Both the position numbers and the translations under genes were made by a program. A model generated the notes under the pieces. That model was not told where the DNA came from. It did no database searches and saw only the letters and a program-made list of their open reading frames with translations. 42,184 bases of DNA from a virus. Lineage: Duplodnaviria > Heunggongvirae > Uroviricota > Caudoviricetes. Each line of letters starts with the position of its first letter. Position 1 is the first letter of the stretch. Location: the IMG/VR virus record IMGVR_UViG_2565956633_000005, positions 1 to 42,184 of that record; one strand, written 5' to 3'. Positions 16,510 to 42,184 of the stretch are shown in pieces.

Positions 16510-18633
16510 TTATTTCGGCAGGAGTTGCGATATTCGCTTACGTTTGACCGGCGCTGGTTCTTCAATAACCGCACCCGGCAGCTCGTAATTGATTTTTTCT
16601 TCCTGTCCAACTGGCGCTGGCAGGAACTTATCCGGATCGGCTTCGAGGTTGGCGGCCCGGACGTTGAGTTTTAACCCCATATGTTTGAGACCGCACAGCG
16701 CGGCATAGCTGTAAACGAGGCAGTCAAGCGCTTCGTTAGCTCGTCCTGGTATTGCTTCCCAGATACTGTACCGCTGCCCGGAAATGACTTTGTAAACCAG
16801 TCGCTCCGCCAGCAGCTGATTGAAGTACCCGAGATCGCGATCGTCAGGAAAATGCATATAACCCGCAGCGGCGGCGCCAGGTTTGGGTGGCTCAAGATGC
16901 AGGCGACCGCGTATCACGTCTTTCGCTGAGTTAACCCCCAGAATGACAGGGCGGAAACTGGCTTTGCTTTTCGATGATGGTCGTTTGGTCGGCCAGACAG
17001 GATTGCGTTTGCCTCCCTGTGCAGACTCCCCCTTAATTGCCCAGACACGACGGCCAAGACGCTCTTTGGCGAATTCGTATACCTTCTGCGTATGGTGGCC
17101 GCCGGAGTCCATGCACGTTGCCATGATATTCAGGCCGCGCCCGTCACCACGTCGCCAGATCTGTTTCAGGTATGCATCCAGTCGCTTCCAGGGTTCTTCC
17201 GTCTCAAGGTCACCATAAATAACGTCATGCGCGACCGACCACGATTCTTCATCTCTCCCCCAGCCGGTGATCGTAATTTCGAAGCGATCGTCCTGGGTAT
17301 CAACTCCAGCTGTTAACAATGCCACCCCGTCCGGAACGACGGCCGGAAATATTTCCCGGCGCGCCAGCAGAACATCAACAGGGAGCTGTTTCCCATGATT
17401 AGGTCGGTGCGGAAGCCCCATCTGGGTATTCCACCACGCCTGTTCCTTATCCGGATCGCCCTTCGCATCGATATATTTTTTCGCAATATCCGACGGCTTA
17501 TCTTTTTGCCAGGGGCTGAAAAGCTTGGATGCCTGGTACCCCGCGTGGTGGTTATCGACTGCCTCCTTTCCACAGGAGGGGCAGATTGCGCGATAGACCG
17601 CATGCCGTTCCGACTCTGACCATTGCCAGACCTTTTCAACGCTGCCCTCGTCTGCCGCCCGCCAGGCAAGGTCATAATCCATCAGCGGTGAGTGCCGCTC
17701 CCCGCAGCACTCAAATGGGCGCGTCTGATGCCATCGAATAGTGTGCAGAGCTCTGAGGCGCTGTCCTTCGGACCAGCCACTACCACAGCATTCGCAATAG
17801 AGCATCGCCGATTTAGTCAGGTGTTTATCTCCCTCTTTCGGCCACTGAACGTGTTTGAAAAAGTCGGGGAACTGGCGGTGGCCACAGTGCGGGCAAACCA
17901 CAGATGCCCGGCGCTGATCGGAGTCGGCGTAGCTGTCAGCAATGCGGCTCTCATCCTCCACCGTCGGCGAACAGGCGCGTACAGACAGCCAGGTCAGGCC
18001 AAATGTCGCTGTACGCTCTTCGGCCAGCGCAATTGGATCGCCTTCGCGGGTTATCGGGTACTTGTCCACTTCATCCGCCAGCAGGACACGAATCGGACGA
18101 CGCGCAAGGTTATCAGGGCTACCAGCACCCGCCAGCGCCAGAAATCCGCCAGTGAATGCCTTGTAAAGAATGGTTTCTTTCGAGCTTTTCTGTTTCGAAT
18201 CACCGATGATTTTACGCAGTACCGGCGTCACCCTTACCAGCGGGCTAATACGCTCTTTCGAAAACTGTTCAGCGGCTTCTTCTTTCGGCTGCAGCAGCAG
18301 TATCGGACAAGGATCGAGGTGGGCAAAATAGCCAAAAAGGTTTTCCAGCAGTGCTGTCTTCATCAACTGGGTACAGCACATTACAGTGATGATATGAACC
18401 CCGGACTCCGTCGCGGCAAGCATCGGTCCGCGGGCAATTTCTACCGTCGATGTTTCCCAGTTTCCCGAAGTGCTCCCAGCCTCTTTTGCCAGCTTACGAT
18501 AGTCATCTGCCCACTGCGGCACACTGATACGCGGCGGGGGTGTCCAGCCTTTGCGGACGCTTAATTCAAGACGCTCAATCTTCTGCCGGGTTAAACTCTG
18601 GCTCTCCGAGGACTGAGATGTGTTTGTGGACAT
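16510..18633 (-). CDS. terL: terminase large subunit (lambda gpA-like)
   Basis: About 707 aa; track start is TTG, ATG at 18631-18633 chosen. Confidence 0.85.
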   Translation of the reverse strand: MSTNTSQSSESQSLTRQKIERLELSVRKGWTPPPRISVPQWADDYRKLAKEAGSTSGNWETSTVEIARGPMLAATESGVHIITVMCCTQLMKTALLENLFGYFAHLDPCPILLLQPKEEAAEQFSKERISPLVRVTPVLRKIIGDSKQKSSKETILYKAFTGGFLALAGAGSPDNLARRPIRVLLADEVDKYPITREGDPIALAEERTATFGLTWLSVRACSPTVEDESRIADSYADSDQRRASVVCPHCGHRQFPDFFKHVQWPKEGDKHLTKSAMLYCECCGSGWSEGQRLRALHTIRWHQTRPFECCGERHSPLMDYDLAWRAADEGSVEKVWQWSESERHAVYRAICPSCGKEAVDNHHAGYQASKLFSPWQKDKPSDIAKKYIDAKGDPDKEQAWWNTQMGLPHRPNHGKQLPVDVLLARREIFPAVVPDGVALLTAGVDTQDDRFEITITGWGRDEESWSVAHDVIYGDLETEEPWKRLDAYLKQIWRRGDGRGLNIMATCMDSGGHHTQKVYEFAKERLGRRVWAIKGESAQGGKRNPVWPTKRPSSKSKASFRPVILGVNSAKDVIRGRLHLEPPKPGAAAAGYMHFPDDRDLGYFNQLLAERLVYKVISGQRYSIWEAIPGRANEALDCLVYSYAALCGLKHMGLKLNVRAANLEADPDKFLPAPVGQEEKINYELPGAVIEEPAPVKRKRISQLLPK

Positions 18634-19144
18634 GTTCAATCAGCACCTCTGTCATCCTGTCCGCCGGTACATCCAGATCAGCAGCCATTAGCGGCGCCAC
18701 CCTGGACGGCCAGTTAAGCCAGGCATCACGCTGTTGGCGAAAGGCGTTGAATAAAACCTCCTCGGCTGCTGTCAGCTCAATAAGCTGGCCGCTGTCTTTT
18801 TCATACTGCAGCTTTGCCTGCAGGGCCATGTAATTCTCGCGGATACGTCCCGCTTCCTCTCTCGAAAGATCTGCCCCTTCAGTGAGCATTATCTGGCGGA
18901 CAGTTTTATTGATTTCATCACCGTCATCATCGTTATCGCTAACGACGGGAGTTTTCTTTTTCTTCGCGTTCGAGGCGCGCGGGTCTTTGCCATCGCGGTT
19001 TTTCTTCAATGCCGCATCGCTGGCCTCTACGTCAATCAGGTCTCCGTCCATCACAATGAAGCGCCCGGCTTTAATCCACCGGCCAATTGTTTTGCGATCC
19101 ACACCTGAATGTTGTGCGTACTGACTCTGGTTCATCGTGGTCAT
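18575..19144 (-). CDS. terS: terminase small subunit (lambda Nu1-like)
   Basis: 189 aa, N-terminal HTH; overlaps terL start as in lambda. Confidence 0.75.
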   Translation of the reverse strand: MTTMNQSQYAQHSGVDRKTIGRWIKAGRFIVMDGDLIDVEASDAALKKNRDGKDPRASNAKKKKTPVVSDNDDDGDEINKTVRQIMLTEGADLSREEAGRIRENYMALQAKLQYEKDSGQLIELTAAEEVLFNAFRQQRDAWLNWPSRVAPLMAADLDVPADRMTEVLIEHVHKHISVLGEPEFNPAED

Positions 19145-19292
19145 GGGACATCACCTGGGACATTTTCTGGGGTGGGACATTCGCCTGGGACATTTTTGCC
19201 ATGTCCCACCAGAATGTCCCACTGGAATAAACTGGAATAGCCAGAGCTGGCGAGGTGTCCGTAATGATCGCCAGAGGTGGGACATGGGACAC
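19145..19292. repeat. cluster of GGGACAT heptamer repeats, candidate cosB terminase-binding sites
   Basis: GGGACAT at 19145, 19157, 19174, 19187, 19279; inverted ATGTCCC at 19201, 19214; GGGACAC at 19286; all just upstream of terS. Confidence 0.5.
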
Positions 19293-19434
19293 AAATCTGA
19301 AAGTTGTAGCTAGGAAAACACCGCGGCGCGCAATGCCCGTACCTTACAAAAGTCTCAGGAAGGACCCATTTTTTTAATGGCTTCGACCATTCGCTCCGAC
19401 TATGATTATTCCTATTCAATACAAGGAGAATGTA

Positions 19435-19938
19435 ATGGGTAACAATATAATCAAAATAACTTTCGTAGCCGCAGTGCTGGCATCACCAATTGCTCATGCC
19501 CAGTGGGTAACTAATACTGAAGATGACCTTTTCTCTGGTGGTAAGAAAGCAATGATGCTTGGCGAGGTTTCATCCGACAATGGCGCCATTGTGTTTGACT
19601 GCACTAAAGAAAAGCTATCGGCGGCATACGTTGAAATGGATAAAAGCACCGAATCACTATCAGAGGTACCAATGGACCTGATAATGAAGGTCGACGGGAA
19701 TACCGCAGTGAAGCTCGATGCTACCCTTTCAAGACGTAATGTTCAGAGCCTCCAGATTCAATCGGATGACGCGGACCAACTAAAAACAGTGCTTAAGCAG
19801 CTTCAGGGGGCGAAATCCAAAGTGTTAGTTGGTGTGCAAACAAAGGATGGCGGAAACCAGCATTCCATGTCAGCCAATGTTTCTGGATCGACAACTGCAG
19901 TAAACAGCTTCATAAAAGCTTGCGAAATTAACTTATAA
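19435..19938 (+). CDS. secreted protein of unknown function (moron, opposite strand)
   Basis: ATG at 19435 with AAGGAG RBS; signal peptide MGNNIIKITFVAAVLASPIAHA; lies between lysis genes and cos. Confidence 0.55.
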   Translation: MGNNIIKITFVAAVLASPIAHAQWVTNTEDDLFSGGKKAMMLGEVSSDNGAIVFDCTKEKLSAAYVEMDKSTESLSEVPMDLIMKVDGNTAVKLDATLSRRNVQSLQIQSDDADQLKTVLKQLQGAKSKVLVGVQTKDGGNQHSMSANVSGSTTAVNSFIKACEINL

Positions 19939-19948
19939 GTTACTGCTT

Positions 19949-20587
19949 TTATTTTGCCGTCCTGATGGCTTCTGCTATCGCCTGATTTAAAGCAGACGGT
20001 AGCAGTGCGTTCGCCATGGTACGGGCCCTATCCATATACCCCAGCACTGGAGTCACAGGTAGCGCATCACCAAACCGGATCAAAAGCTTTGGAGAACGCT
20101 GTTTACGTTTCGGTCTTCGCGTCCCATTAGCGGAGCGCTTGGCCCGTCGCTTCTTAGCTTTCATCGGTTTCTTACGCTGCCAGACAGCGTTAACGCCATC
20201 CACCTCACCTACGAATACATTTTCCTTTGCTTTGAGCTGAGAGAGCTTATTACGCGGCAGGTTGCCGTATTTATTAAGCTTTATGTCTTTCGGGTTAAGC
20301 AAAGCACTACCATTAAGCTTGTGCTCTCCGCCGAACTCGAAGGGTTCAAGGTAACCAGCAGCAGTATCACGAACAAACACCTTCGCACGAAGGCTGTTTT
20401 TCCTGGCACCAACTGACCCAACCGATTTAACTGTAAAAGGTGTTGGATTATCCAGATTCCGCTCAAATGCTGTTTTTTGGGCCGCTTCTATCTGGCGAAC
20501 CACTTTAGTCATAGCCTGGGCAGTCGCAAACGGTATTTGCTTCTGCAGCTGCTTTAGCTGCCGGGATAAATCCTTAAGCGTTGACAT
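19949..20587 (-). CDS. hypothetical protein with basic Lys/Arg-rich tract
   Basis: ATG at 20585-20587 with GGAGG RBS (MSTLKDLSRQ...). Confidence 0.45.
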   Translation of the reverse strand: MSTLKDLSRQLKQLQKQIPFATAQAMTKVVRQIEAAQKTAFERNLDNPTPFTVKSVGSVGARKNSLRAKVFVRDTAAGYLEPFEFGGEHKLNGSALLNPKDIKLNKYGNLPRNKLSQLKAKENVFVGEVDGVNAVWQRKKPMKAKKRRAKRSANGTRRPKRKQRSPKLLIRFGDALPVTPVLGYMDRARTMANALLPSALNQAIAEAIRTAK

Positions 20588-20637
20588 GGTTTCCTCCAAC
20601 ATTATCGAGCCACCTCTGGAAGTGGCTCTGTAATGCC

Positions 20638-21105
20638 TTACTTCAGGCACTGCGTGGTGATGTATTCCTGCAGCGCCCTCAGGGCTGTTTGGTCGCTGAG
20701 GATTCCGGATCGGATACCGAGAACGTTTCGTCCAGCAACTGCAGAGAGTTCGACGGTGGCATCATCGCCCATGCTGGAGGCGCCGGTGGTTTGGGTTGAG
20801 GCTGACACTGGACATTTGCCTTTGACGAGCACCCGACCACCATTATCAAGCTTGCGCTGCAGAGCATCATTTTCAGCTTTTGCATCGGCTAATTCCTTCG
20901 TGTATTTGGCATCGAGCGCTGCGACGTCTCTCTGACGGGTCTGCATGTCAGCGATGGTGTCTTTCGCCAGGCTGAGCTGCTCAGTCACTTTATCGCGCTG
21001 CCTTTTGAACTCGGTGGCGTTGTCATGGTAGTGGCTAGCCAACCATCCGAGACTGACTATCAGGCAGATCACAATGGCGCTGATAATGGTGGTTAATCGG
21101 CTCAT
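20638..21105 (-). CDS. Rz: i-spanin (Rz-like)
   Basis: ATG at 21103-21105 overlapping endolysin stop; N-terminal TM helix then coiled-coil-like region. Confidence 0.65.
20679..20885 (-). CDS. Rz1: o-spanin lipoprotein (Rz1-like), embedded in Rz in +1 frame
   Basis: 68 aa; lipobox-like ...LIMVVGC; Pro-rich ([12 protein letters not shown]). Confidence 0.6.
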
Positions 21106-21605
21106 TTCTGCCCCCACAAACAAACTTCACGCTCAATCTCGCGGCGAGTTACCAGGCCTTTCCACTGCTTGCCCTTGGCGTAAGTCCAGCGGCGCAGCTG
21201 GTCGCACGCACCTTTCTGGTCGCCCTGGTTGATTTTGCGCAGCAGCGTGGAGGTCTGGAAGTTTCCAGCGCCGACGTTATACGCGAATGAGTACAGCGCC
21301 CCTCTCATCGTTTCGGGGATCGGAGCATTGATATATGGGTTAATCTGTCGGGCGACAATATTCAGGTCTTTATCCAGCAGCGCCTGGCACTCTGCTTTGG
21401 TGTAGGTCTTGCCGAGGATAATATCTTTACCAGTATGGCCCCAGCATACAGTCCACACTCCAACAACATCCCGATAAGGCTGATAGCGTACACCTTCAAG
21501 GCCATCATTACCCGTTGGGCCAGTAATCAACGCCGCAGCGATAGCAATAGCGCCAGCGGGTATCGCTGCAATAACGCTATTCTTCAGCTTTGGTGGCATA
21601 GCCAT
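21102..21605 (-). CDS. SAR endolysin, glycoside hydrolase family 24
   Basis: N-terminal Gly/Ala-rich signal-anchor-release segment [20 protein letters not shown]; E-x8-D-x5-T catalytic spacing ([16 protein letters not shown]). Confidence 0.8.
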
Positions 21606-21855
21606 TGCGCCGATCCTCCCGTTCTTTCCAGCGGAAATACCAGTTCACTGCACAGGTAATAACAGTGCATGCGATACCGACAATAATTGCCCAGTCGCTC
21701 AGGCTTAACCCTGCAATTCTGTCGGCCAACATCCAGGACACCTCTTTTGCTGTTTTAGCTGTTTCGGCATATGCCTTCGCTGATACACCGCAGCCGGTCA
21801 GCGTGGTTCCTGTTCCATATGAAAGTCTGCTGTAAATGGTGCTCATTCTGGTCAT
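21577..21855 (-). CDS. pinholin (phage 21 S-like) with dual-start motif
   Basis: MTRM... dual start; TMD2 [29 protein letters not shown] resembles S21 pinholin; overlaps endolysin start. Confidence 0.7.
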
Positions 21856-23328: not shown

Positions 23329-23357
23329 AATATATGCTATTTAATTGACTTTTGCAA
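23329..23357 (-). promoter_or_regulatory. candidate late promoter (pR'-like)
   Basis: Minus strand TTGCAA-17 nt-TATATT overlapping the 3' end of the Q-like gene. Confidence 0.3.
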
Positions 23358-24030
23358 TACCATGCCGCGAAAAAGTCGTTTTTTGTTGTGAACGTGATCG
23401 AGAAACCGTCAGCAAAGCTTGTCTGTCCAATCCTTGGAAAATTTCCCCCATAGCCCGCCAGTAGCCAGAATAGTTATGGCTCCAGTTATCGGGTTTAATT
23501 CCGATCATAGAAGCTGGCGCATAACGTAAGCAGCCTTCCCTGCCTGAAATATCTGCTTTTTCATTCTGAGCCGCCAGCCAGATGAGCTGACGCAGGCGAT
23601 CTACCGTTTTCTTTGCAATGCGCACACCTGCAAATTGTTGGTTGAATTGCTCCCACGCCCAGCGGACAATCGTCTCCTGGAGCTCCCAGCAGATATTGTC
23701 GCTGTAGGTCCAGAGCAACCATGCTCTCTGATGGTCTTCCAGAGACAGGACAGCGCGGCGCCATGATGCGGTGCCGAACTCTACCGGACTCACCAGCGCG
23801 ATTGACGAGCCCTTGGCGCGTGACTGACTGCCGCTCATCGGCGGGCCGTCGGGGTTAACCATGCGCTTTTTCTGCGCGTCATAGACTTTCTTCCGCCCCC
23901 GACTCCGCGCCGTCGCGGTGAATTGCGCGTTCTCGGCGAAAGCTACCAGCTGCCCTTTCGTCGCCCCGCTGAGGTCTGCGGTCGCCACAATGAGCTGCTG
24001 ACGTACGTATTCCAGTTGCTGACTGTTCAT
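23341..24030 (-). CDS. putative late antiterminator Q-like protein
   Basis: 229-aa ORF in the Q position between nin genes and late leader; family assignment tentative. Confidence 0.5.
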   Translation of the reverse strand: MNSQQLEYVRQQLIVATADLSGATKGQLVAFAENAQFTATARSRGRKKVYDAQKKRMVNPDGPPMSGSQSRAKGSSIALVSPVEFGTASWRRAVLSLEDHQRAWLLWTYSDNICWELQETIVRWAWEQFNQQFAGVRIAKKTVDRLRQLIWLAAQNEKADISGREGCLRYAPASMIGIKPDNWSHNYSGYWRAMGEIFQGLDRQALLTVSRSRSQQKTTFSRHGIAKVN

Positions 24031-31030: not shown

Positions 31031-31798
31031 ATGGTTAAAAAAGACGATTTAAAAGAAGAATTCTCGAAGAGACTTCGCGCTGCATTGCTTGATGCTGGCG
31101 TGGGTGGGCGTGGGCAGGCTGGCAGGATCAGGGAAGCTATGAAGTCCCAAGGGATTGCTGTATCTGAGCCCGGGATCTGGAAGTGGCTTAACGCATCAGC
31201 AATACCAGACCAAACCAATATCCTTGCACTTAGCCGCTGGCTTGGGGTTCGCCCTGAGTGGCTGGAATACGGAAGGAATGATCCTGAACCTGAACTGCAC
31301 AGGGTATCATCCATCCCGCCTGAATCTGAGTGGGGAACTGTCGACGCTTGGGACAAAAATACCCCCCTACCTGACGATGAGGTGGAAGTACCGTTTCTGA
31401 AGGATATCGAGTTTGCGTGTGGTGATGGGCGTGTTCATAGCGAAGATCATAACGGCTTTAAACTGAGGTTCTCCAAGGCAACGCTCAGAAGGGTGGGTGC
31501 AAATAGTGATGGTTCTGGAGTGCTTTGCTTTCCCGCTTCTGGTGACAGCATGGAGCCCGTTATTCCTGACGGCGCAACGGTAGCAGTCGATACAGGCAAC
31601 AAGCGGATTATTGACGGCGAACTCTATGCTATTAACCAGGGCGATTTAAAGCGCATAAAGCAGCTTTATCGAAAGCCTGGTGGGAAGCTATTAATACGAA
31701 GCATCAATCGCGATTATGACGATGAAGAGGCTGATGAGGCAGATGTCGAGATAATCGGTTTTGTGTTCTGGTACTCGGTATTGCGATATCGCCGATAA
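31031..31798 (+). CDS. cI: CI-like repressor (HTH plus S24 LexA-like autopeptidase domain)
   Basis: 255 aa; C-terminal GDSMEPVIPDGATVAV...K motif. Confidence 0.8.
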   Translation: MVKKDDLKEEFSKRLRAALLDAGVGGRGQAGRIREAMKSQGIAVSEPGIWKWLNASAIPDQTNILALSRWLGVRPEWLEYGRNDPEPELHRVSSIPPESEWGTVDAWDKNTPLPDDEVEVPFLKDIEFACGDGRVHSEDHNGFKLRFSKATLRRVGANSDGSGVLCFPASGDSMEPVIPDGATVAVDTGNKRIIDGELYAINQGDLKRIKQLYRKPGGKLLIRSINRDYDDEEADEADVEIIGFVFWYSVLRYRR

Positions 31799-32064: not shown

Positions 32065-32544
32065 ATGGATAAAATTAATTACCCACCCCTGTTTGAGCCA
32101 GGGCTCCATGACATGGATGAAGCTGGATTAAAATCGTATTGTGTCGATTGCTTTCCTTCATCATCCAGGCGAGGCATGCTATACTGTAATTTTATACAGC
32201 TACTCGAATCTATTCGAGAATTATCTGCTCAATATGGCTGTTTTACAGAAATATGGGTTGATGGTTCATACACCACGTCTAAACCAGAGCCTGATGATAT
32301 TGATATTTTGTTGGTATGTGACTATAGCAATATAAACTCAATACCTGTCATGCTTCGGGGCCGCGTCGATAATTTGCTTGACCGAAACTACATCAAACAA
32401 AACTACAAAATTGATGTCCTACTACTCATGAAGAATTTAGATGACCCTAACTATGATTATGAGTACTGGCGTAGCTACTGGCGCGGTTGGTTTGGTTTTG
32501 ATCGCAGTGAAAACCCGAAAGGGTTAGTGAGGATTTTTTTATGA
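32065..32544 (+). CDS. minimal nucleotidyltransferase-like protein (Pol-beta superfamily signature)
   Basis: 159 aa; AAGG RBS; EIWVDGSYTTSKPEPDDIDILLV fits hG[GS]x9-13Dx[DE]; later KIDVLLL acidic strand; AT-rich. Confidence 0.55.
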   Translation: MDKINYPPLFEPGLHDMDEAGLKSYCVDCFPSSSRRGMLYCNFIQLLESIRELSAQYGCFTEIWVDGSYTTSKPEPDDIDILLVCDYSNINSIPVMLRGRVDNLLDRNYIKQNYKIDVLLLMKNLDDPNYDYEYWRSYWRGWFGFDRSENPKGLVRIFL

Positions 32545-33473
32545 ATGATAAATCAATGTTTAAAAATTGCGATAAACGCATTGATTTCATTCAAAAAGAA
32601 GTCGATGCAATGAAGCAAAACAAAACCAGGTCCTTTGCTGACATGCTTCTTTATCGCTCCATGGATTCTCATCTGAGCGATTTGAAGGCCGAAAAATTAA
32701 AGCAAGATAGTCGGCACCCACTTATCGATTTTTTTGAGCTGCGGCTGAAAGGCTCTGAGGTTGACTTTGGCTCTATTCCTTTAGAGCTGCTTGGGGCTAT
32801 TTCAACAAATCTTGCAGCGCTAATACAAAGAGCAACACACAAAATTGCCTCAGGCAAGGACTCAAAAAAAGTTCCCTACGACGTGAAAAGCTCCTTAAAC
32901 CTCAGGCTGGCTGATTTATCCCCTGGGTCTACAAAATTGGGCGTCACCTTCTCTACAGGAATAGCAGAATTAGTAGAAACAGTACCCAGCAAGGCTGTAA
33001 AAGGCATATTCGATTTGTTGTTAAGCGATGACGACAACAACTTCATGAATCACGTCGCTGAAATTGGATACAATTCCACTGTAAGCCTTAAGAGAATCGT
33101 AGAGGAATGCGATAAACACAACTTAACATTTGATGCAAGTTGGACCGGTCCATTTAGTAATGGCACCAAGGTGGCAACTATTGACTCCAATAAAATTAAG
33201 TACTTGGTGAGTAGACTTACATCAACCATTTCATCCCCTCCCATTACTGAAACGGTTACAGGCGAACTGGTCGTTCTATCCAAATATGGGAAGCTGGAGC
33301 TTGATGTTGGTGGTGAACATTTAAAGGCTTCCTATCCGATTGAAATGCTAGATTTAATACAAAAAAAACACAAGGTCGGACAGATTGTTTCTCTTTTAGT
33401 GGAGACTACTGAGATTCACAATGATCGCATAGGTCTGTACCGTAAAAACCATCTTGTTAAATCGGTTCTTTAA
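32541..33473 (+). CDS. hypothetical protein, partner of NTase-like gene
   Basis: 310 aa; ATGA overlap with upstream gene; GTGAGGA RBS; no recognisable motif. Confidence 0.55.
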   Translation: MNDKSMFKNCDKRIDFIQKEVDAMKQNKTRSFADMLLYRSMDSHLSDLKAEKLKQDSRHPLIDFFELRLKGSEVDFGSIPLELLGAISTNLAALIQRATHKIASGKDSKKVPYDVKSSLNLRLADLSPGSTKLGVTFSTGIAELVETVPSKAVKGIFDLLLSDDDNNFMNHVAEIGYNSTVSLKRIVEECDKHNLTFDASWTGPFSNGTKVATIDSNKIKYLVSRLTSTISSPPITETVTGELVVLSKYGKLELDVGGEHLKASYPIEMLDLIQKKHKVGQIVSLLVETTEIHNDRIGLYRKNHLVKSVL

Positions 33474-35960: not shown

Positions 35961-38900
35961 ATGGAATTCTTTAATGTGGTTAAAGCCACTCAGAAATCCG
36001 GAAAGCAAGATGCAGTGGTCTGGTTCACTGCTAAAACCGAGGCTCGCGCCAATCTGATGCTGGATGTTGCGCTGGAAGATGCAGGTATCGAAACAGGTCG
36101 GGGTAAGGACTACGCCAAACCGATTCGCACTGATTTCCCAGTTGTCGACGGCCTGCCGAAAGAAGGTGAAGTTGATTTTACCTGGTGTGATCGCTACGAG
36201 CTTCAGGACGATGGGCGCACCTGGCTGCCAAAAGCCGCTGGTGTGTCTACTGGTTCCGTTGACGCCCCCTACACACCTACTCCGACCGTAATCGTTGAAG
36301 ATGCGACTGCGTCCGAAATTGTCCCGGTTGAAAACCGTACTCCAGCGGTCCGCTTTGCCGTCCATCTGATGAACGATAAATACCAAACCCACGTCACTAA
36401 AGAGCAGCAGTTGGCTGCCAGCGAAATGTCACTGGATGAAGGCAATACATATCTCCATAGCCTGCTTGTGGCAAGGAACGATGTGCCCGCGACCGCCAAA
36501 CTCAGCCTGAATGCTGAGTGGAAAATGATTCGGGCGGTTAAGGACATTTTCACACCCGACGAAGAGCACGAACCAAGATTGATCGCTGCATTCATGTCTG
36601 ACTGGGTGAACACCGATGCCGGTGACCGCAATCAACTGGTAGAAGACTGGCGCAGTGGTAAGTTGCAGTTGCTCAAAACTGAAACCAGCAACGCTGCTGA
36701 CGTTACAACGGGTCAAGATCTCACTGTTGAGGACGGTATCCAGACCGACGAGAACGGCCGGGCAGAAGGTGGCGTCGTTGATGGTGAAGTCGATACCGAA
36801 GAGCAATCCCAGCAGACACAGCAACCGAACCTGATCGTTGTTGCCACCCTGCCATTCCGCCAGCGCGTACTGGCTCAGTTCATCGGTGATGGTGAATATC
36901 TCTATCACATCGACGCAGGGCAGAAAAATGAGATTGTCCGCCTTGAGATGGACACCGATGACGCGTACGTCCAGAACCTGCTGCTGGCAGCTGAGAATGT
37001 GGAAGCATTCAAAAAAGCCATTGAGCACGATATTCATAAAGTCGTGAATGCCGTTAAGAAAGTCTTCCCTGTCGATGGAAAAATCCCTGAACTCGCAACC
37101 TTAATCCAGTTTTTGAAATTGTGGTTCGCTACAGATCACATCGACCGCGGTATCCTCGTTCGCGAATGGGCCGCCGGTAATCGCATCAGTAGTGTGCAGC
37201 GTACTGATTCCGGAACCAATGCCAACGGCGGTTACGTCACTGACCGTGGACCTGATACATACCATACCCTTGACACTCTCGATTTAGAGATTGCATGTGC
37301 CCTTCTGCCTATGGACTTCAACCACTTCGAGATCCCGGGCAGCATTCTTCGTCGCGCTAAAGAAATCGTGACCAAAAAAGAAGAACCATGGAAATCATGG
37401 AGCAACATCCTGCGCAATCAGCCAGGCGTTCTGGGTGTTAACCGCACGGCTATTTTTAACCTGGTACGTATCGCACCGGAAAATATTCATTTAACTCCTG
37501 TCGCTCACCTGGAATTTGTTAACCAGACCATGACAGCCGCGTTCAATTCCGCGGTCGAGTTATTGCCGTTGCATGAGGCTGAACCCGCAGCACAGGAAAT
37601 TCCCCAACCTGAAGGTAAGGAGTCTCCGCGCAAATCCTTCTGCACTCACGAAGAGAACCTGCAACGCGTGCGTGAAGAAGGAGCACGCCGCCGCGCAGAG
37701 GAAGCGGCAGCACAACCGCAGAAAGTCGAACAAGAACTGGTTAAAAATGTCGGCAACGGAATATTCGACGTTACGGCTTTGCTGCAGAACTCAGCAACTC
37801 ATGGCACGAAAAAGGCTACGGAGACCACCAGCAATGTGCAGGTTCAAGAAACTGTCAGTGATGAAAAACAAGCTGGTGATGAAGTACAGCCAGGCGAAAG
37901 CAGTCTGGAGTCTGGTGAAGAGTCAGATACCAGCCAGAAGGACGATGTAAACCAGAATACGGATTCTGTCGCCAAAAATAGCGATTCTGTAAGCCAAACC
38001 GAACCAGTTGCAGCACAAACCGAGCCAGAAGCGCAATCTGACGAACCGGCTGTTGTTTATCCCGCTTATTTCGAGCCAGGCCGCTATGAAGGGCTGCCAA
38101 ACGAGGTTTACCACGCCGCCAACGGCATCAGCTCAACCCAGGTGAAAGATGCGCGCGTTTCGCTGATGTACTTCAATGCGCGCCACGTAGAGAAAACCAT
38201 CGTCAAAGAGCGCTCAGCGGTGCTGGACATGGGCAACTTGGTGCATGCGCTGGCGTTGCAGCCTGAACTACTGGACGCAGAATTCAGCGTTGAACCGGTG
38301 ATCCCTGAAGGCGCATTCACAACGGCCGCGACCCTGCGCGCCTTTATCGATGAGCACAATGCCAGCCTGCCGGCGCTGCTGTCTGCCGACGACATCAAGG
38401 TGTTACTGGAAGAGTACAACGCCACCCTGCCGCCGCAGGTTCCGCTTGGCGCTAACCTGGAAGAAACGGCACAGAACTATATGGCGCTGCCAGCTGACTT
38501 CCAGCGTATTGATGGTGACCAGAAGCAGACGGCGACGGCAATGAAGGCATGCATTAAAGAGTACAACGCCACCCTGCCGCCGCCGGTTAAAACCAGCGGC
38601 AGCCGTGACGCGCTGCTGGAGCAGTTGGCAATCATCAACCCTGACCTTGTGGCTCAGGAAGCACAGAAACCGGCACCACTGAAAGTGTCCGGTACCAAAG
38701 CAGACATGATCCAGGCCGTGAAGGCAGTCAAACCAGATGCCGTATTTGCCGACGAACTGCTGGATGCCTGGCGCGATAACCCGGAAGGAAAAGTGCTGGT
38801 CACCCGCCAGCAGCTGAGCACCGCGCTGAATATTCAAAAAGCGCTTCTGGCACACCCGACCGCCGGCATGCTGCTGACCCACCCTAGCCGAGCCGTTGAG

Positions 38901-39350
38901 GTGAGCTACTTTGGTTTTGACGAGGAGACGGGCTTGGAAGTTCGTGTGCGCCCTGACCTTGAGATCGACCTGGATGGCGTGCGTATAGGTGCAGACCTGA
39001 AAACCATCAGCATGTGGAATGTTAAGCAGGAAAGCCTGCGCGCCAGGCTACACCGGGAAATTATTGAACGTGATTATCACCTGAGCGCGGCTATGTACTG
39101 CGAAACCGCAGCGCTGGATCAGTTCTTCTGGATTTTCGTCAACAAAGACGAGAACTACCACTGGATCGCCATCATCGAGGCATCCGCTGAACTACTGGAG
39201 CTGGGTATGCTCGAGTACCGCAAAGCGATGCGCAATATCGCAACCGGATTCGACACAGGTGAATGGCCAGCGCCAATCACTGCTGACTACACCGACGAAC
39301 TGAACGACTTCGACCTGCGCCGCCTTGAAGCGCTGCGTACTCAGGCATAA
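35961..39350 (+). CDS. recE: large RecE-like exonuclease (putative exodeoxyribonuclease VIII-type)
   Basis: 1129-aa ORF with TGAGGA RBS directly upstream of RecT-like gene; nuclease assignment by synteny, tentative. Confidence 0.5.
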   Translation: MEFFNVVKATQKSGKQDAVVWFTAKTEARANLMLDVALEDAGIETGRGKDYAKPIRTDFPVVDGLPKEGEVDFTWCDRYELQDDGRTWLPKAAGVSTGSVDAPYTPTPTVIVEDATASEIVPVENRTPAVRFAVHLMNDKYQTHVTKEQQLAASEMSLDEGNTYLHSLLVARNDVPATAKLSLNAEWKMIRAVKDIFTPDEEHEPRLIAAFMSDWVNTDAGDRNQLVEDWRSGKLQLLKTETSNAADVTTGQDLTVEDGIQTDENGRAEGGVVDGEVDTEEQSQQTQQPNLIVVATLPFRQRVLAQFIGDGEYLYHIDAGQKNEIVRLEMDTDDAYVQNLLLAAENVEAFKKAIEHDIHKVVNAVKKVFPVDGKIPELATLIQFLKLWFATDHIDRGILVREWAAGNRISSVQRTDSGTNANGGYVTDRGPDTYHTLDTLDLEIACALLPMDFNHFEIPGSILRRAKEIVTKKEEPWKSWSNILRNQPGVLGVNRTAIFNLVRIAPENIHLTPVAHLEFVNQTMTAAFNSAVELLPLHEAEPAAQEIPQPEGKESPRKSFCTHEENLQRVREEGARRRAEEAAAQPQKVEQELVKNVGNGIFDVTALLQNSATHGTKKATETTSNVQVQETVSDEKQAGDEVQPGESSLESGEESDTSQKDDVNQNTDSVAKNSDSVSQTEPVAAQTEPEAQSDEPAVVYPAYFEPGRYEGLPNEVYHAANGISSTQVKDARVSLMYFNARHVEKTIVKERSAVLDMGNLVHALALQPELLDAEFSVEPVIPEGAFTTAATLRAFIDEHNASLPALLSADDIKVLLEEYNATLPPQVPLGANLEETAQNYMALPADFQRIDGDQKQTATAMKACIKEYNATLPPPVKTSGSRDALLEQLAIINPDLVAQEAQKPAPLKVSGTKADMIQAVKAVKPDAVFADELLDAWRDNPEGKVLVTRQQLSTALNIQKALLAHPTAGMLLTHPSRAVEVSYFGFDEETGLEVRVRPDLEIDLDGVRIGADLKTISMWNVKQESLRARLHREIIERDYHLSAAMYCETAALDQFFWIFVNKDENYHWIAIIEASAELLELGMLEYRKAMRNIATGFDTGEWPAPITADYTDELNDFDLRRLEALRTQA

Positions 39351-39355
39351 GGGGA

Positions 39356-40474
39356 ATGATGATGGAAAACACGAATATCGTAACCGCTGAACAGCAGACT
39401 CCAAACACGATCTCAGCCAGCAATGCCATTTTCAACGTGCAGGCTTTAACCCAGCTTCAGTCTGTCGCCGGGTTGATGGCACAGGCAGCCGTAACGGTGC
39501 CTGAGCACCTCCGCGGCAATCCGGCAGACTGCATGGCCATCATCATGCAGGCGATGCAGTGGGGTATGAACCCTTACGCCGTGGCGCAAAAGACGCACCT
39601 GGTTAACGGTGTCCTGGGATACGAAGCGCAACTGGTTAATGCGGTGATCTCCAGCTCAAACGCCATCGTTGGCCGCTTTCACTATGAGTACGAGGGCGAC
39701 TGGTCGAAATGTGCCAGCAGCCGCGAGATAACCGTTAAAAAGCCTGCGAAAGGTGGCGGGACGTACGACAAGAAAGAAATGGTACGCGGTTGGGAAAGTG
39801 CTGATGAACAAGGACTGTCGGTACGGGTAGGTGCCGTTATTCGCGGTGAAAGTGATATCACCTGGGGAGAGCCTGTTTTCCTCTCCAGCGTAATCACACG
39901 TAATTCTCCACTTTGGGTATCAAACCCGAAACAGCAGATCGCTTATCTGGCACTCAAATACTGGGCGCGCCTGTATTGCCCTGCAGTTGTTCTTGGTGTG
40001 TACACCCCTGATGAGATTGAACAGCGCACAGAAAAAGAGATCAACCCAACGCCGCAACGCGTTAGCCTGGCTGATATCTCAGGTGACACCGTCACAACCA
40101 CGCAAAGCGCACAGGAATCGTCGGTAAATGTCGACTCTCTTGCCGATGATTTCCGCGAACGCATCGAATCTGCTCAGGACGTGGATAGCGCCAAATCGCT
40201 GCGTGCCGACATTGAAACGGCGAAAGCTACGCTGGGATCCGCACTATTCACCGAGCTAAAAAACAAAGCCGTAAAGCGTTATTACCTAGTGGATGCACGC
40301 AACAAGGTTGAGGAGGCTATTAAATCCCTGCCCCAGCCCGACGAGCCGCATGCAGCCGAACGGTTCGCTGAAGCCGAGCGCATGCTTGCATCTTCAAAGC
40401 GTCACTTAGGCGATGAACTGCACGATCAATTCAGCATCACCCTGGCGGATATGAAACCGGAATACGTGGCCTGA
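39356..40474 (+). CDS. recT: RecT/Red-beta family single-strand annealing protein
   Basis: ...IIMQAMQWGMNPYAVAQKTHLVNGVLGYEAQL... resembles Bet/RecT core; AAGGGG RBS. Confidence 0.55.
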   Translation: MMMENTNIVTAEQQTPNTISASNAIFNVQALTQLQSVAGLMAQAAVTVPEHLRGNPADCMAIIMQAMQWGMNPYAVAQKTHLVNGVLGYEAQLVNAVISSSNAIVGRFHYEYEGDWSKCASSREITVKKPAKGGGTYDKKEMVRGWESADEQGLSVRVGAVIRGESDITWGEPVFLSSVITRNSPLWVSNPKQQIAYLALKYWARLYCPAVVLGVYTPDEIEQRTEKEINPTPQRVSLADISGDTVTTTQSAQESSVNVDSLADDFRERIESAQDVDSAKSLRADIETAKATLGSALFTELKNKAVKRYYLVDARNKVEEAIKSLPQPDEPHAAERFAEAERMLASSKRHLGDELHDQFSITLADMKPEYVA

Positions 40475-40796: not shown

Positions 40797-40994
40797 ATGG
40801 ATGATATTTTGGTAACGTCAGACCTGACCAGTCGCTACAAAATTTCACGCAAAACCCTTTGGTCATGGCAAAGTGCAGACACAATGCCTCGGGGCTTCGT
40901 ATGCCCGTTCCCACCCCCTGACTGGCCCGGCAACCCTAACCGCTGGCGCTCTGAGTCAATCAAAGAGTGGGAGGATAAAAAGAAGATAAATTAA
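40797..40994 (+). CDS. xis: excisionase / AlpA-family DNA-binding protein
   Basis: ATG at 40797 with GGAGAG RBS; ...[10 protein letters not shown]...FP.P pattern; convergent with int, overlapping stops. Confidence 0.55.
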
Positions 40995-42184
40995 CTGAAG
41001 GGCTCTCCGATGATCTCTTCAAGATGGCTCTGCCAAACGCGGAGCCAGTGTTTCTGATCATCGATATAGTCATGAAGGTTGTAATGCGCCATAACCCCCA
41101 CCATCTGATGCCCGAGCAGCTTTTCAATTACGTGCGGCGGGCAACCTAACTCAGAGAGATTTGTGGCTATCGTCCGCCTCATATCATGAAGCGACCACTC
41201 TGCCATACCTGTTCCATTCCAAATAGAACGGGCGTAATTGGATGCCACAGGTGAATGAACGGGCGAATCTTTGATCCCGCCATCAATTTTACGTTGTGAA
41301 GTCACCAGGTGATTGGTGTTTATTTTCTTGAGGTGATTTCTGACCAGGTTAACGGCGGCGTCTGAGAGTCCCCTTCTAATATGTACCCGAGTTTTATAAC
41401 TGCCCGCAGGCACGACCCACTCATTATCATCCAATCGAAACCATGATCTCTCACTAAGTCGAATCTCAGCCGTACGGCATCCGGTAAGCATAATAAATTT
41501 CACCAGGAAAACGGACTCTATCGACATATGGCTTTTCAACCACTGATAGATTTTGCGCAGATCGTCATCGTCCATCCTGCGAGTTCTCTTTTTAGGCTTT
41601 TGCCCGACATCAGATGGCAGTAATCCCTCGAGTGGGTTTGAGGCGATCACACTTCTGTTAACGCAGAACCTAAACGCCCGTTTGCACAGCGAAAGCATGT
41701 AATGAGCCATCACCCTGCTTTCTATAGAATCGAAGACGTTGATCCAGTGCATTTTCGCTGTGTTATCGACTTTGACATTCTTCATCGGTTCGGCGATATG
41801 TTTCTCAAACACCTGGCGATAGTAATCGACTTTAACTAGCCCGTTAGCGATACAGTGCCTTTCAATCCAGTAATTGAACGCTTCGGCAACGGACATCGCT
41901 TCCTGTCGGGTCTGCTTATCCAGCTTCACCTGCTCTCGCGGATCCAGTCCCTCAGTTAACCAGTTTCTGAATTGTTGGCGACGCTCTCTTGCCTGGGTGA
42001 TACTCATTGCAGGATAATCACCAACATTGAGTTTTACCGCTTTACCGGCCCAGCGATACCGATAGAAAAATGATATTTTTCCGGCCTGGCTGATTCTGGC
42101 GTTGAGCCCGTGCGAATCAGAAATAATCTCGATATCATCTCTTTTCTTGCCGAGCGCCTTCCTGAGCTTTGTGTCGGTGATCAT
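40991..42184 (-). CDS. int: tyrosine integrase (P4-like)
   Basis: 397 aa; HxxR (LHDMRRT) and catalytic Tyr region (MAHYNLHDY); ATG at window edge. Confidence 0.85.

What the first reader, a model, noticed from the sequence alone, without database searches (positions are those of the whole stretch)
19435..19938. Opposite-strand secreted protein between lysis genes and cos (bor-equivalent moron position)
Seen in sequence: plus-strand ORF with AAGGAG RBS and N-terminal signal peptide ending AHA-QW, embedded among minus-strand late genes. Established knowledge: lambda carries the lysogenic-conversion gene bor in the equivalent position and orientation. Inference: lysogen-expressed periplasmic factor of unknown function.
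Basis: partly seen in the sequence, partly recalled or inferred. Interest (0 to 1): 0.5.

Follow-up and report, generated by a model that had tools for sequence, protein, structure and literature searches.

The report
Prophage add-on gene for periplasmic protein
This is a real 580-bp add-on gene cassette (a "moron") next to the DNA-packaging site of an E. coli prophage; it encodes a small exported protein of unknown function, so it is an ordinary kind of feature carrying an uncharacterised protein family.

Summary
Window 19435-19938 (+) is a genuine 167-codon gene. It has an AAGGAG ribosome-binding site and a Sec-type signal peptide (…AHA|QW), and it lies antisense among minus-strand late genes of a lambdoid E. 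coli prophage.

The moron reading is shown, not just plausible:
- Close relatives with an identical small terminase lack the gene. That delimits an inserted unit at 19369-19948.
- The unit has lower G+C than its flanks (0.43 vs 0.53-0.56).
- A -10-like TATGAT and the ribosome-binding site are conserved upstream.
- Relatives carry a hairpin/T-run terminator after the stop codon; the window allele has lost it.
- Homologs sit in at least six other places: after mom at the right end of Mu-like prophages (5 of 97 E. coli genomes with com-mom), beside tape-measure genes, in an HK97-type phage, in early regions, and in chromosomes.

Expression in the lysogen and the function were not tested. My best guess is protection at the cell envelope, perhaps superinfection exclusion.

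The parts
19369..19948 (+). Inserted moron unit: promoter region, CDS and 10-nt tail
   Evidence: Alignment with empty-site E. coli prophages L075 and L076 (identical small terminase) is 100% identical up to 19368 and resumes at the stop codon of the 233-aa gene at 19949. Three sampled records (H36-H38) lose homology exactly at 19368 (query position 794). G+C is 0.434, against 0.526 for the small terminase and 0.555 for the large terminase.
19377..19382 (+). Weak -35-like hexamer ATGGCT, preceded by a T-run at 19369-19375
   Evidence: It lies 18 nt upstream of the -10. The homologous position reads ATGACT in Salmonella locus L007, where the scanner reports a 9/12 promoter. Alignment is A4. This part is inferred, and it falls below the scanner's threshold in the window.
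19401..19406 (+). -10-like hexamer TATGAT
   Evidence: TAT..T is invariant in 9 diverged upstream regions, including the chromosomal Leminorella copy, while the spacer varies freely.
19423..19428 (+). Shine-Dalgarno AAGGAG
   Evidence: Seen directly in the sequence. CAAGG.G is invariant in alignment A4.
19435..19938 (+). CDS, 167 aa, PHROG 19473, no Pfam family
   Evidence: purifying selection.
19435..19500 (+). Sec-type signal peptide (22 aa), predicted cleavage AHA|QW
   Evidence: Rule-based analysis; the features are conserved across 114 family members: 114 have a hydrophobic core, 109 have K/R, 93 satisfy the -3/-1 rule, and 0 have a lipobox. SignalP was not available.
19501..19935 (+). 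Mature 145-aa protein (15.5 kDa, pI about 5): beta-sandwich plus two helices, with conserved Cys56 and Cys163
19144..19285 (.). Backbone: cluster of 7 TGGGACAT repeats (5 direct, 2 inverted), probably small-terminase binding sites (cosB-like)
   Evidence: These are all 7 exact matches in the 42-kb window; 0 of 100 shuffles reach 7. The function is inferred.
19321..19368 (.). Backbone: conserved G+C-rich stretch CCGCGGCGCGC…CAGGAAGGACCCA, ending at the insertion junction; candidate cosN region
   Evidence: Conserved in both filled and empty sites. cosN itself is not mapped.
19949..20650 (-). Backbone late gene convergent with the moron (PHROG 1924, 'minor tail protein'); not part of the cassette
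   Evidence: Present in both empty and filled sites.
18575..19144 (-). Small terminase subunit (PHROG 57), the backbone neighbour on the other side

Best explanation
Window 19369-19948 is a self-contained accessory cassette (moron) inserted antisense between the last gene of the lysis-side late operon and the packaging site of a lambdoid prophage. That prophage has a lambda-type head and a Mu-type contractile tail.

The cassette carries its own weak sigma-70 promoter (ATGGCT-18 nt-TATGAT) and a strong ribosome-binding site. It encodes a 167-aa precursor that the Sec pathway exports and that is cleaved after AHA. This releases a soluble 145-aa periplasmic beta-sandwich protein, probably stabilised by one disulfide (Cys56-Cys163).

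Inferred steps: the gene is transcribed from the repressed prophage, and the protein binds a cell-envelope component, as the periplasmic scaffolds it most resembles do. My preferred reading is that this protects the lysogen at the envelope, most likely by blocking entry of superinfecting phage after adsorption.

Shown here: gene reality, insertion boundaries, mobility between contexts, export signals and fold class. My own probabilities for the parts: moron cassette about 0.9; periplasmic location about 0.85; lysogen expression about 0.6; superinfection exclusion as the specific role about 0.3.
For: Empty site: E. coli prophages with the identical small terminase protein and the 233-aa-gene homolog sit 239 bp apart with no gene between them. 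Homology breaks at 19368 and resumes at 19949.

Second backbone: 63%-identical homologs are the last gene of Mu-like prophages, between mom and the conserved right end. Four different host flanks follow. Only 5 of 97 E. coli genomes with com-mom carry the gene.

Other contexts:
- between the tape-measure and DNA-circularization genes (L011, L068);
- between a Doc toxin and the tape-measure gene (L070/71);
- in a phage with HK97-type HNH-terminase genes (L054);
- in an early region next to Ant (a 183-aa paralog, L077-79);
- in the Leminorella chromosome (L006).

Independent recombination: in L046 the terminases and portal have dS <=0.01 but the target has dS 1.5. In L044 the target has dS 0.02 but both flanks have 0.7-1.4.

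G+C is 0.434 against 0.53-0.56 in the flanks.

Promoter footprint: TAT..T and the ribosome-binding site are invariant while the spacers vary, including in the chromosomal copy. The scanner finds a promoter at the same place in L007.

Terminators lie directly after the stop codon in L007, L068 and L070 and in L046, L050, L059 and L010.

Signal-peptide features and the two-Cys pattern hold across 114 relatives.

The model is confident, and its top structural neighbours are periplasmic envelope proteins. IalB-domain proteins are periplasmic or envelope-associated; RgsG, for example, works within a Tol-Pal network (PMC7327166). MotY-N makes periplasmic protein contacts (bioRxiv 10.64898/2025.12.04.692373).

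Precedent: the HK97 gene 15 moron beside the tape-measure gene encodes an envelope protein that excludes superinfecting phage (PMC3594210).
Against: No expression data exist. The window's promoter is only 8/12 and was not reported by the scanner, which found 0 sites in 18900-20800.

The window allele lacks the terminator hairpin that relatives have. Only 10 nt separate the convergent stop codons.

Nothing ties the protein to phage exclusion specifically. There is no PADLOC match worth noting, no homolog in 50,697 sequenced phages and no characterised relative.

SignalP was not run. The distance between the two cysteines in the model could not be read out.
Confidence: 0.55

Rival explanations
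1. It is a host-interaction or virulence-type conversion factor like Bor or IalB. The exported protein would help the lysogen survive in an animal host, for example through serum resistance, adhesion or invasion.
For: The position and orientation match lambda bor. The best structural match is Bartonella invasion-associated protein B. Many E. coli carriers come from humans or animals.
Against: The protein is soluble and periplasmic with no lipobox or surface anchor. The family occurs in environmental and plant-associated Enterobacterales: Edaphovirga, Serratia plymuthica, Dryocola, Pantoea agglomerans from onion, and river-water and frog-farm E. coli. IalB's own mechanism is unknown (PMC7327166). 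No sequence-level link to IalB or Bor was found.
Confidence: 0.15
2. It is a periplasmic immunity or inhibitor protein against other envelope-targeted attacks, such as lysozymes, colicins or type VI peptidoglycan-degrading effectors, rather than against phage.
For: It is a small disulfide-bonded periplasmic beta-sandwich carried on mobile elements. Alleles are strongly diverged compared with the structural genes (dN up to 0.30 against 0.05 for the large terminase).
Confidence: 0.15
3. It is a phage lytic-cycle protein, either a virion or tail-associated component or a lysis accessory factor, that merely happens to sit on the opposite strand here.
For: In several phages homologs lie in the same orientation inside tail modules, next to the tape-measure gene. 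In the window it is near the lysis cassette.
Against: The gene is dispensable: near-identical phages lack it. Its position changes between phage types and it also occurs in chromosomes. A cleavable Sec signal peptide is conserved. It has its own terminators in the tail-module contexts. It is antisense to the late operon in the window.
Confidence: 0.05
4. It is a chance antisense ORF, not a gene.
For: None beyond its location on the strand opposite all its neighbours.
Against: dN/dS is 0.06-0.13. There are 270 cluster representatives. The AlphaFold2 model is confident. The ribosome-binding site is conserved. No competing minus-strand ORF longer than 51 aa crosses it.
Confidence: 0.01

Closest known systems
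Phage lambda bor (lysogenic-conversion moron between Rz and cos)
   Same: It is an opposite-strand, independently transcribed accessory gene between the lysis genes and the packaging site of a lambdoid phage, and it encodes an exported envelope protein. The lambda layout is from established knowledge; Bor's role is described in PMC3594210.
   Different: Bor is an outer-membrane lipoprotein of about 97 aa. This protein has no lipobox (0 of 114 relatives), no Bor Pfam match and a different size and fold. The analogy is positional only.
HK97 gene 15 moron (inner-membrane superinfection-exclusion protein)
   Same: Both have textbook moron anatomy: extra DNA compared with relatives, deviant G+C, and their own promoter and terminator. 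HK97 gene 15 lies between the tail chaperone and tape-measure genes (PMC3594210), the slot where homologs of this gene sit in L070-L073. Both products act in the envelope.
   Different: gp15 is a small integral membrane protein, whereas this is a soluble periplasmic beta-sandwich. There is no sequence similarity, and exclusion activity has not been tested here.
IalB family (Pfam PF06776; PDB 3dtd, Bartonella henselae)
   Different: There is no Pfam IalB hit for the target or for any of 114 relatives at E<=0.01. One 297-aa relative scores E=0.002, below the curated cut-off. Profile searches of PDB sequences do not find 3dtd. Aligned identity is 12%.
MotY N-terminal domain (Vibrio polar flagellar T ring, PDB 8z5n)
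   Different: Identity is 9%. The target has no OmpA-like C-terminal domain and no flagellar context. That chain A of 8z5n is MotY is my inference from its length and description.
T4 Spackle (Sp), a periplasmic superinfection-exclusion protein
   Same: It is a small Sec-exported periplasmic phage protein that blocks a step of phage entry. This is the closest functional analogue to the mechanism proposed here, and the comparison rests on my own knowledge.
   Different: It has an unrelated sequence and, from my own knowledge, an all-helical fold. It comes from a virulent phage. No evidence here links the target to tail lysozyme inhibition.

Membership tests
Moron (as defined in PMC3594210) | Extra DNA relative to closely related phages | tested here: met
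   Empty-site prophages with an identical small terminase show homology breaking at 19368 and 19949. Only 5 of 97 E. coli genomes with Mu-like com-mom carry the homolog.
Moron (as defined in PMC3594210) | G+C content differs from surrounding genes | tested here: met
   The unit is 0.434, against small terminase 0.526, large terminase 0.555 and Rz 0.543. Third-codon-position G+C is 0.446 against 0.58-0.59.
Moron (as defined in PMC3594210) | Own promoter | tested here: inconclusive
   A conserved -10-like TATGAT and the ribosome-binding site stand out among variable spacers. The scanner reports a 9/12 promoter at the homologous site in L007. The window's ATGGCT-18-TATGAT is 8/12 and was not reported.
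Moron (as defined in PMC3594210) | Own terminator | tested here: inconclusive
   A hairpin plus T-run lies directly after the stop codon in L007, L068 and L070 and in L046, L050, L059 and L010. In the window allele the 5' arm is deleted and only 10 nt separate the convergent stops.
Moron (as defined in PMC3594210) | Expressed from the repressed prophage | not testable with these tools
   This needs strand-specific RNA-seq, 5'-RACE or proteomics of an uninduced lysogen.
Sec-exported soluble periplasmic protein | Cleavable signal peptide with n/h/c regions and the -3/-1 rule, and no lipobox | tested here: met
   Rule-based analysis only. The window reads MGNNIIK/ITFVAAVLASPI/AHA|Q. Across 114 relatives, 114 have a hydrophobic core, 109 have K/R, 93 satisfy -3/-1 and 0 have a lipobox. 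SignalP was not available.
Lambda Bor family | Lipoprotein signal (lipobox Cys) and Bor sequence homology | tested here: not met
   No lipobox and no Bor Pfam hit at E<=1.
IalB family (PF06776) | Match to the Pfam model above its gathering score | tested here: not met
   No hit for the target. 0 of 114 relatives hit at E<=0.01. One relative scores 18.7 bits against a cut-off of 22.1.
IalB family (PF06776) | IalB fold | tested here: inconclusive
Known anti-phage defence systems (PADLOC) | Match to a defence-system protein model | tested here: not met
   The only hit is a weak chance-level match (E=0.007, 13 bits) to a type I specificity subunit.
Superinfection-exclusion proteins (functional class) | Expression blocks infection by incoming phage after adsorption | not testable with these tools
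   This needs plating-efficiency, adsorption and DNA-entry assays.

The most novel reading that the evidence does not exclude
The gene is a member of a previously undescribed family of Sec-exported, two-cysteine, IalB-like periplasmic proteins, with at least 270 clusters at 50% identity. Temperate phages of Enterobacterales repeatedly capture these genes at cargo hot spots: the cos junction, the Mu right end, the flanks of the tape-measure gene and the immunity region. On this reading the family is a new periplasmic mechanism of superinfection exclusion or envelope defence, and it would give the first molecular function for the IalB-like fold.
Probability: 0.25. Interest if true: 0.6.

Novelty: new member of a known kind. 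Interest (0 to 1): 0.35.

Why it matters
Morons are how temperate phages change their hosts, and most have no assigned function. This one is unusually well delimited: natural filled and empty sites exist in two unrelated phage backbones. It also belongs to a sizeable family with no Pfam model and no annotation beyond 'hypothetical protein'. A related 183-aa E. coli paralog has been seen on at least 1,000 contigs.

The natural isogenic pairs make a phenotype screen straightforward (phage exclusion, envelope stress, serum, competition). A positive result would annotate hundreds of prophage genes. It could also shed light on the long-unexplained IalB-type fold. If no phenotype is found, this remains a routine accessory gene.

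Tried and rejected
Searches that gave no functional lead:
- Pfam, NCBIfam and PADLOC scans of the target found nothing usable.
- tblastn of the target, and of the 183-aa paralog, against 50,697 GenBank phage records found no match. Megablast of the region against the same set also found nothing.
- Profile searches of PDB sequences with the close (A1) and wide (A2) alignments, and with P0066, returned only chance hits and never 3dtd. A sequence-level link to IalB was therefore not established.
- Foldseek against PDB found nothing significant, and its top hits (TEAD) have TM about 0.25. Foldseek against viral models gave weak hits to uncharacterised proteins of T4-like phages (TM about 0.5).
- The Rfam scan of 18800-20800 returned only a chance microRNA hit.
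- Plasmids gave two 45%-identical Pantoea megaplasmid hits only.
- Literature searches for the accession, and for IalB together with MotY, found nothing.

- The AlphaFold database library was not available.
- The search for related loci with the wide alignment failed because no stretch was conserved enough.

Ideas rejected:
- The longer 178-aa reading from ATG 19402. It has no ribosome-binding site, it overlaps the conserved -10, the ATG is not conserved, and NCBI's pipeline uses 19435.
- The conserved ...AGGAAGGACCCA motif as part of the cassette. It is phage backbone, present in empty sites.
- A structural or lysis role, and a chance ORF (see the rival explanations).

Full report
**1. What is in the sequence**

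Window 19435-19938 (+) is an open reading frame of 167 codons. AAGGAG lies at 19423-19428, 6 nt before the ATG. The N-terminus reads MGNNIIKITFVAAVLASPIAHA|QW.

The window is an almost complete lambdoid prophage of E. coli, 100% identical over the region to NZ_CP116923. It contains:
- an integrase at 40991-42184;
- RecE/RecT at 35961-40474;
- a CI-like repressor at 31031-31798 (+);
- the Q antiterminator at 23341-24030 (-);
- a late region entirely on the minus strand.

The late region runs in this order: holin, endolysin, Rz/Rz1, a 233-aa gene (PHROG 1924), then the target on the opposite strand. After the target come a repeat-rich non-coding stretch, the small terminase, a lambda GpA-type large terminase, the portal, head genes and a Mu-type contractile tail.

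NCBI's pipeline annotates the same CDS as a hypothetical protein, WP_001472855.1. The only refinement is that one backbone gene separates the ORF from the lysis cassette.

**2. It is a real gene**

- The protein matches PHROG 19473 (unknown function) end to end at E=1.6e-99.
- It has 33 close homologs, all in Enterobacterales.
- An exhaustive profile search finds 270 cluster representatives at E<=1e-3.
- Pairwise Nei-Gojobori estimates give dN/dS of 0.06-0.13 wherever dS is not saturated.
- An AlphaFold2 model built on 27 sequences is confident: pLDDT 86.5, pTM 0.79, with only the signal peptide disordered.

**3. It is an inserted cassette (moron)**

A megablast of the small-terminase-to-233-aa-gene segment against 5,426 complete E. 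coli genomes found many prophages where the two flanks match but span about 1,450 bp instead of 2,013 bp. Two of these were fetched. They encode the identical small terminase protein (WP_000210383.1) and a homolog of the 233-aa gene, 239 bp apart, with nothing between them.

The three-way alignment is 100% identical up to window 19368 (…CAGGAAGGACCCA). It resumes at the stop codon of the 233-aa gene at 19949. Three other sampled records lose homology exactly at 19368 (query position 794).

The inserted unit is therefore 19369-19948, 580 bp. It consists of a T-run, ATGGCT (19377-19382), an 18-nt spacer, TATGAT (19401-19406), the ribosome-binding site, the CDS and 10 nt. Its G+C is 0.434, against 0.526-0.555 for the terminase genes, and the third-codon-position G+C is 0.446 against 0.58-0.59 (profile).

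**4. The cassette moves**

Among 58 IMG/VR loci and several genome loci, the dominant arrangement is small terminase (-) | target (+) | 233-aa gene (-). It occurs in E. coli, Salmonella, Klebsiella aerogenes, Citrobacter, Kluyvera and Enterobacter prophages. Homologs also occupy other positions:

| Context | Loci or proteins |
|---|---|
| Last gene of Mu-like transposable prophages, between com-mom and the conserved right end …GTTTTTCGTGCGCCGCCTCA; four loci then diverge into four host contexts | L002-L005 |
| Same-strand slot between the tape-measure and DNA-circularization genes | L011 (Dryocola), L068 |
| Between a Doc-like toxin and the tape-measure gene, or just before the tape-measure gene | L070-L073 |
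| Same opposite-strand position in a phage with HK97-type HNH endonuclease and terminase genes | L054 |
| Early region next to an Ant anti-repressor and a CI-like repressor, for a 183-aa E. coli paralog seen on at least 1,000 contigs | P0045/P0197, L077-L079 |
| Islands next to a DUF3892 gene | Edaphovirga, Serratia |
| Plain chromosomal setting | Leminorella (L006) |

In the Mu-like case only 5 of 97 E. coli genomes with com-mom carry the gene.

Divergence patterns show that the gene recombines independently of its flanks:
- In L046 the terminases and portal are almost identical to the window (dS <=0.01), but the target has dS about 1.5.
- In L044 the target is almost identical (dS 0.02), while the small terminase (1.4) and the 233-aa gene (0.7) are not.

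**5. Transcription signals**

In nine diverged upstream regions, including the chromosomal Leminorella copy, TAT..T and CAAGG.G are invariant while the sequence between them varies freely. The scanner reports a 9/12 promoter (ATGACT-18-TATATT) at the homologous place in Salmonella locus L007.

The window's version is 8/12 and was not reported. The promoter is therefore plausible but not proven.

Relatives carry a hairpin plus T-run directly after the stop codon. The scanner reports these in L007, L068 and L070, and folding shows them in L046, L050, L059 and L010. In the window allele the 5' arm of that hairpin is missing, and only 10 nt separate the convergent stop codons.

Q-dependent late transcription must read through the cassette antisense, as it does for bor in lambda (established knowledge).

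**6. The protein**

Rule-based analysis across 114 diverse relatives gives:
- 114 with a hydrophobic core;
- 109 with an N-terminal K/R;
- 93 satisfying the -3/-1 rule one residue before the invariant Trp;
- 0 with a lipobox;
- 111 with exactly two cysteines in the mature part, at the positions of Cys56 and Cys163.

The mature protein is 145 aa, 15.5 kDa, with pI about 5. The model has nine strands and two helices.

At sequence level no link to IalB could be made. IalB-domain proteins are periplasmic or envelope-associated and have no known mechanism (PMC7327166; bioRxiv 10.64898/2026.01.22.700529). MotY-N is a periplasmic protein-contact module (bioRxiv 10.64898/2025.12.04.692373). The fold therefore suggests binding to an envelope component and nothing more specific.

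**7. Interpretation**

It remains an inference on expression in the lysogen.

On function I commit, with about 0.3 probability, to envelope-level protection against superinfecting phage. The reasons are:
- The cassette sits in the classic cargo slots, including the HK97 gene 15 slot beside the tape-measure gene (PMC3594210).
- Carriers include many non-pathogenic and environmental bacteria, which argues against a mammal-specific virulence role.
- Alleles are much more diverged than the neighbouring structural genes.

Rivals are a Bor/IalB-like host-interaction factor (0.15), immunity against other envelope-targeted toxins (0.15), a lytic-cycle role (0.05) and a chance ORF (0.01).

**8. Verdict**

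This is a new member of a known kind: a cleanly delimited moron carrying an uncharacterised protein family. It is not surprising to a phage specialist. It is, however, a convenient and testable entry point into a widespread family that so far has no annotation beyond 'hypothetical protein'. Interest is 0.35.

Noticed in passing
window 19144-19285: All 7 exact copies of TGGGACAT in the 42-kb window (5 direct, 2 inverted) cluster in 142 bp directly upstream of the small terminase start codon; 0 of 100 shuffles reach 7. They are probably small-terminase binding sites (cosB-like). A conserved G+C-rich CCGCGGCGCGC at 19321-19331 is a candidate cosN.
   Followed up: partly
window 5627-5919 (-): There is a second moron-like cassette. 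An unannotated 82-aa ORF (5671-5919), hydrophobic with probably two membrane spans, matches PHROG 12129 (unknown function) and has its own intrinsic terminator (5647-5627). It lies between the tape-measure gene (5951-7810) and the DNA-circularization gene (4204-5610). That is the same slot where Dryocola (L011) and L068 phages carry a homolog of the target gene.
   Followed up: partly
window 19949-20650 (-): A 233-aa late gene (NCBI's start gives 212 aa) matches PHROG 1924, 'minor tail protein', and weakly a tail-completion/Neck1 family. It lies between the lysis cassette and the packaging site, far from the tail module. It belongs to the phage backbone (present in empty sites) and is itself exchanged as a mosaic block (dS 2.3 against the window in L046, where the terminases are identical).
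   Followed up: partly
window 19936-19951, compared with L046/L050/L007: The window allele, and the many 100% identical prophages, have lost the 5' arm of the terminator hairpin that follows the gene in diverged relatives. The convergent stop codons are left 10 nt apart.
   Followed up: yes
L077-L079 (IMG/VR); proteins P0045/P0197: A 183-aa E. coli paralog (about 40% identity, seen on at least 1,000 contigs) sits in the early region of lambdoid prophages, next to an Ant anti-repressor, a CI-like repressor and RecT. In one case it lies beside an IS21-like transposase pair.
   Followed up: partly
L072 4947-5857: A 39%-identical homolog is followed 24 nt later by a second ORF (122 aa) with its own signal-peptide-like N-terminus, just before the tape-measure gene. 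This may be a two-gene exported cassette.
   Followed up: no
proteins P0152, P0166, P0178, P0183 (metagenomic): Alanine-rich proteins of 330-655 aa, from unidentified metagenomic organisms, carry two or three tandem copies of this domain behind one signal peptide. P0097 joins the N-terminal half of a major capsid protein E to the C-terminal half of this domain and is probably an assembly or frameshift artefact.
   Followed up: no
window 32065-33473 (+): A DUF6932 gene (PHROG 9194) and a 310-aa gene (PHROG 6603, unknown function) lie immediately downstream of the CI-like repressor on the same strand. This slot is typically expressed in lysogens. In the otherwise related prophage of NZ_CP116923 the equivalent region carries different cargo (TerB-family protein, DUF3927).
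   Followed up: no
window 20638-21855 compared with L001 22845-24114: The lysis cassette differs between the window (Rz/Rz1, phage lysozyme, holin) and the otherwise identical prophage of NZ_CP116923 (LysC, DUF2570, a different lysozyme and holin, plus KilA-N and three extra small genes). This shows mosaic exchange immediately to the right of the 233-aa gene.
   Followed up: partly
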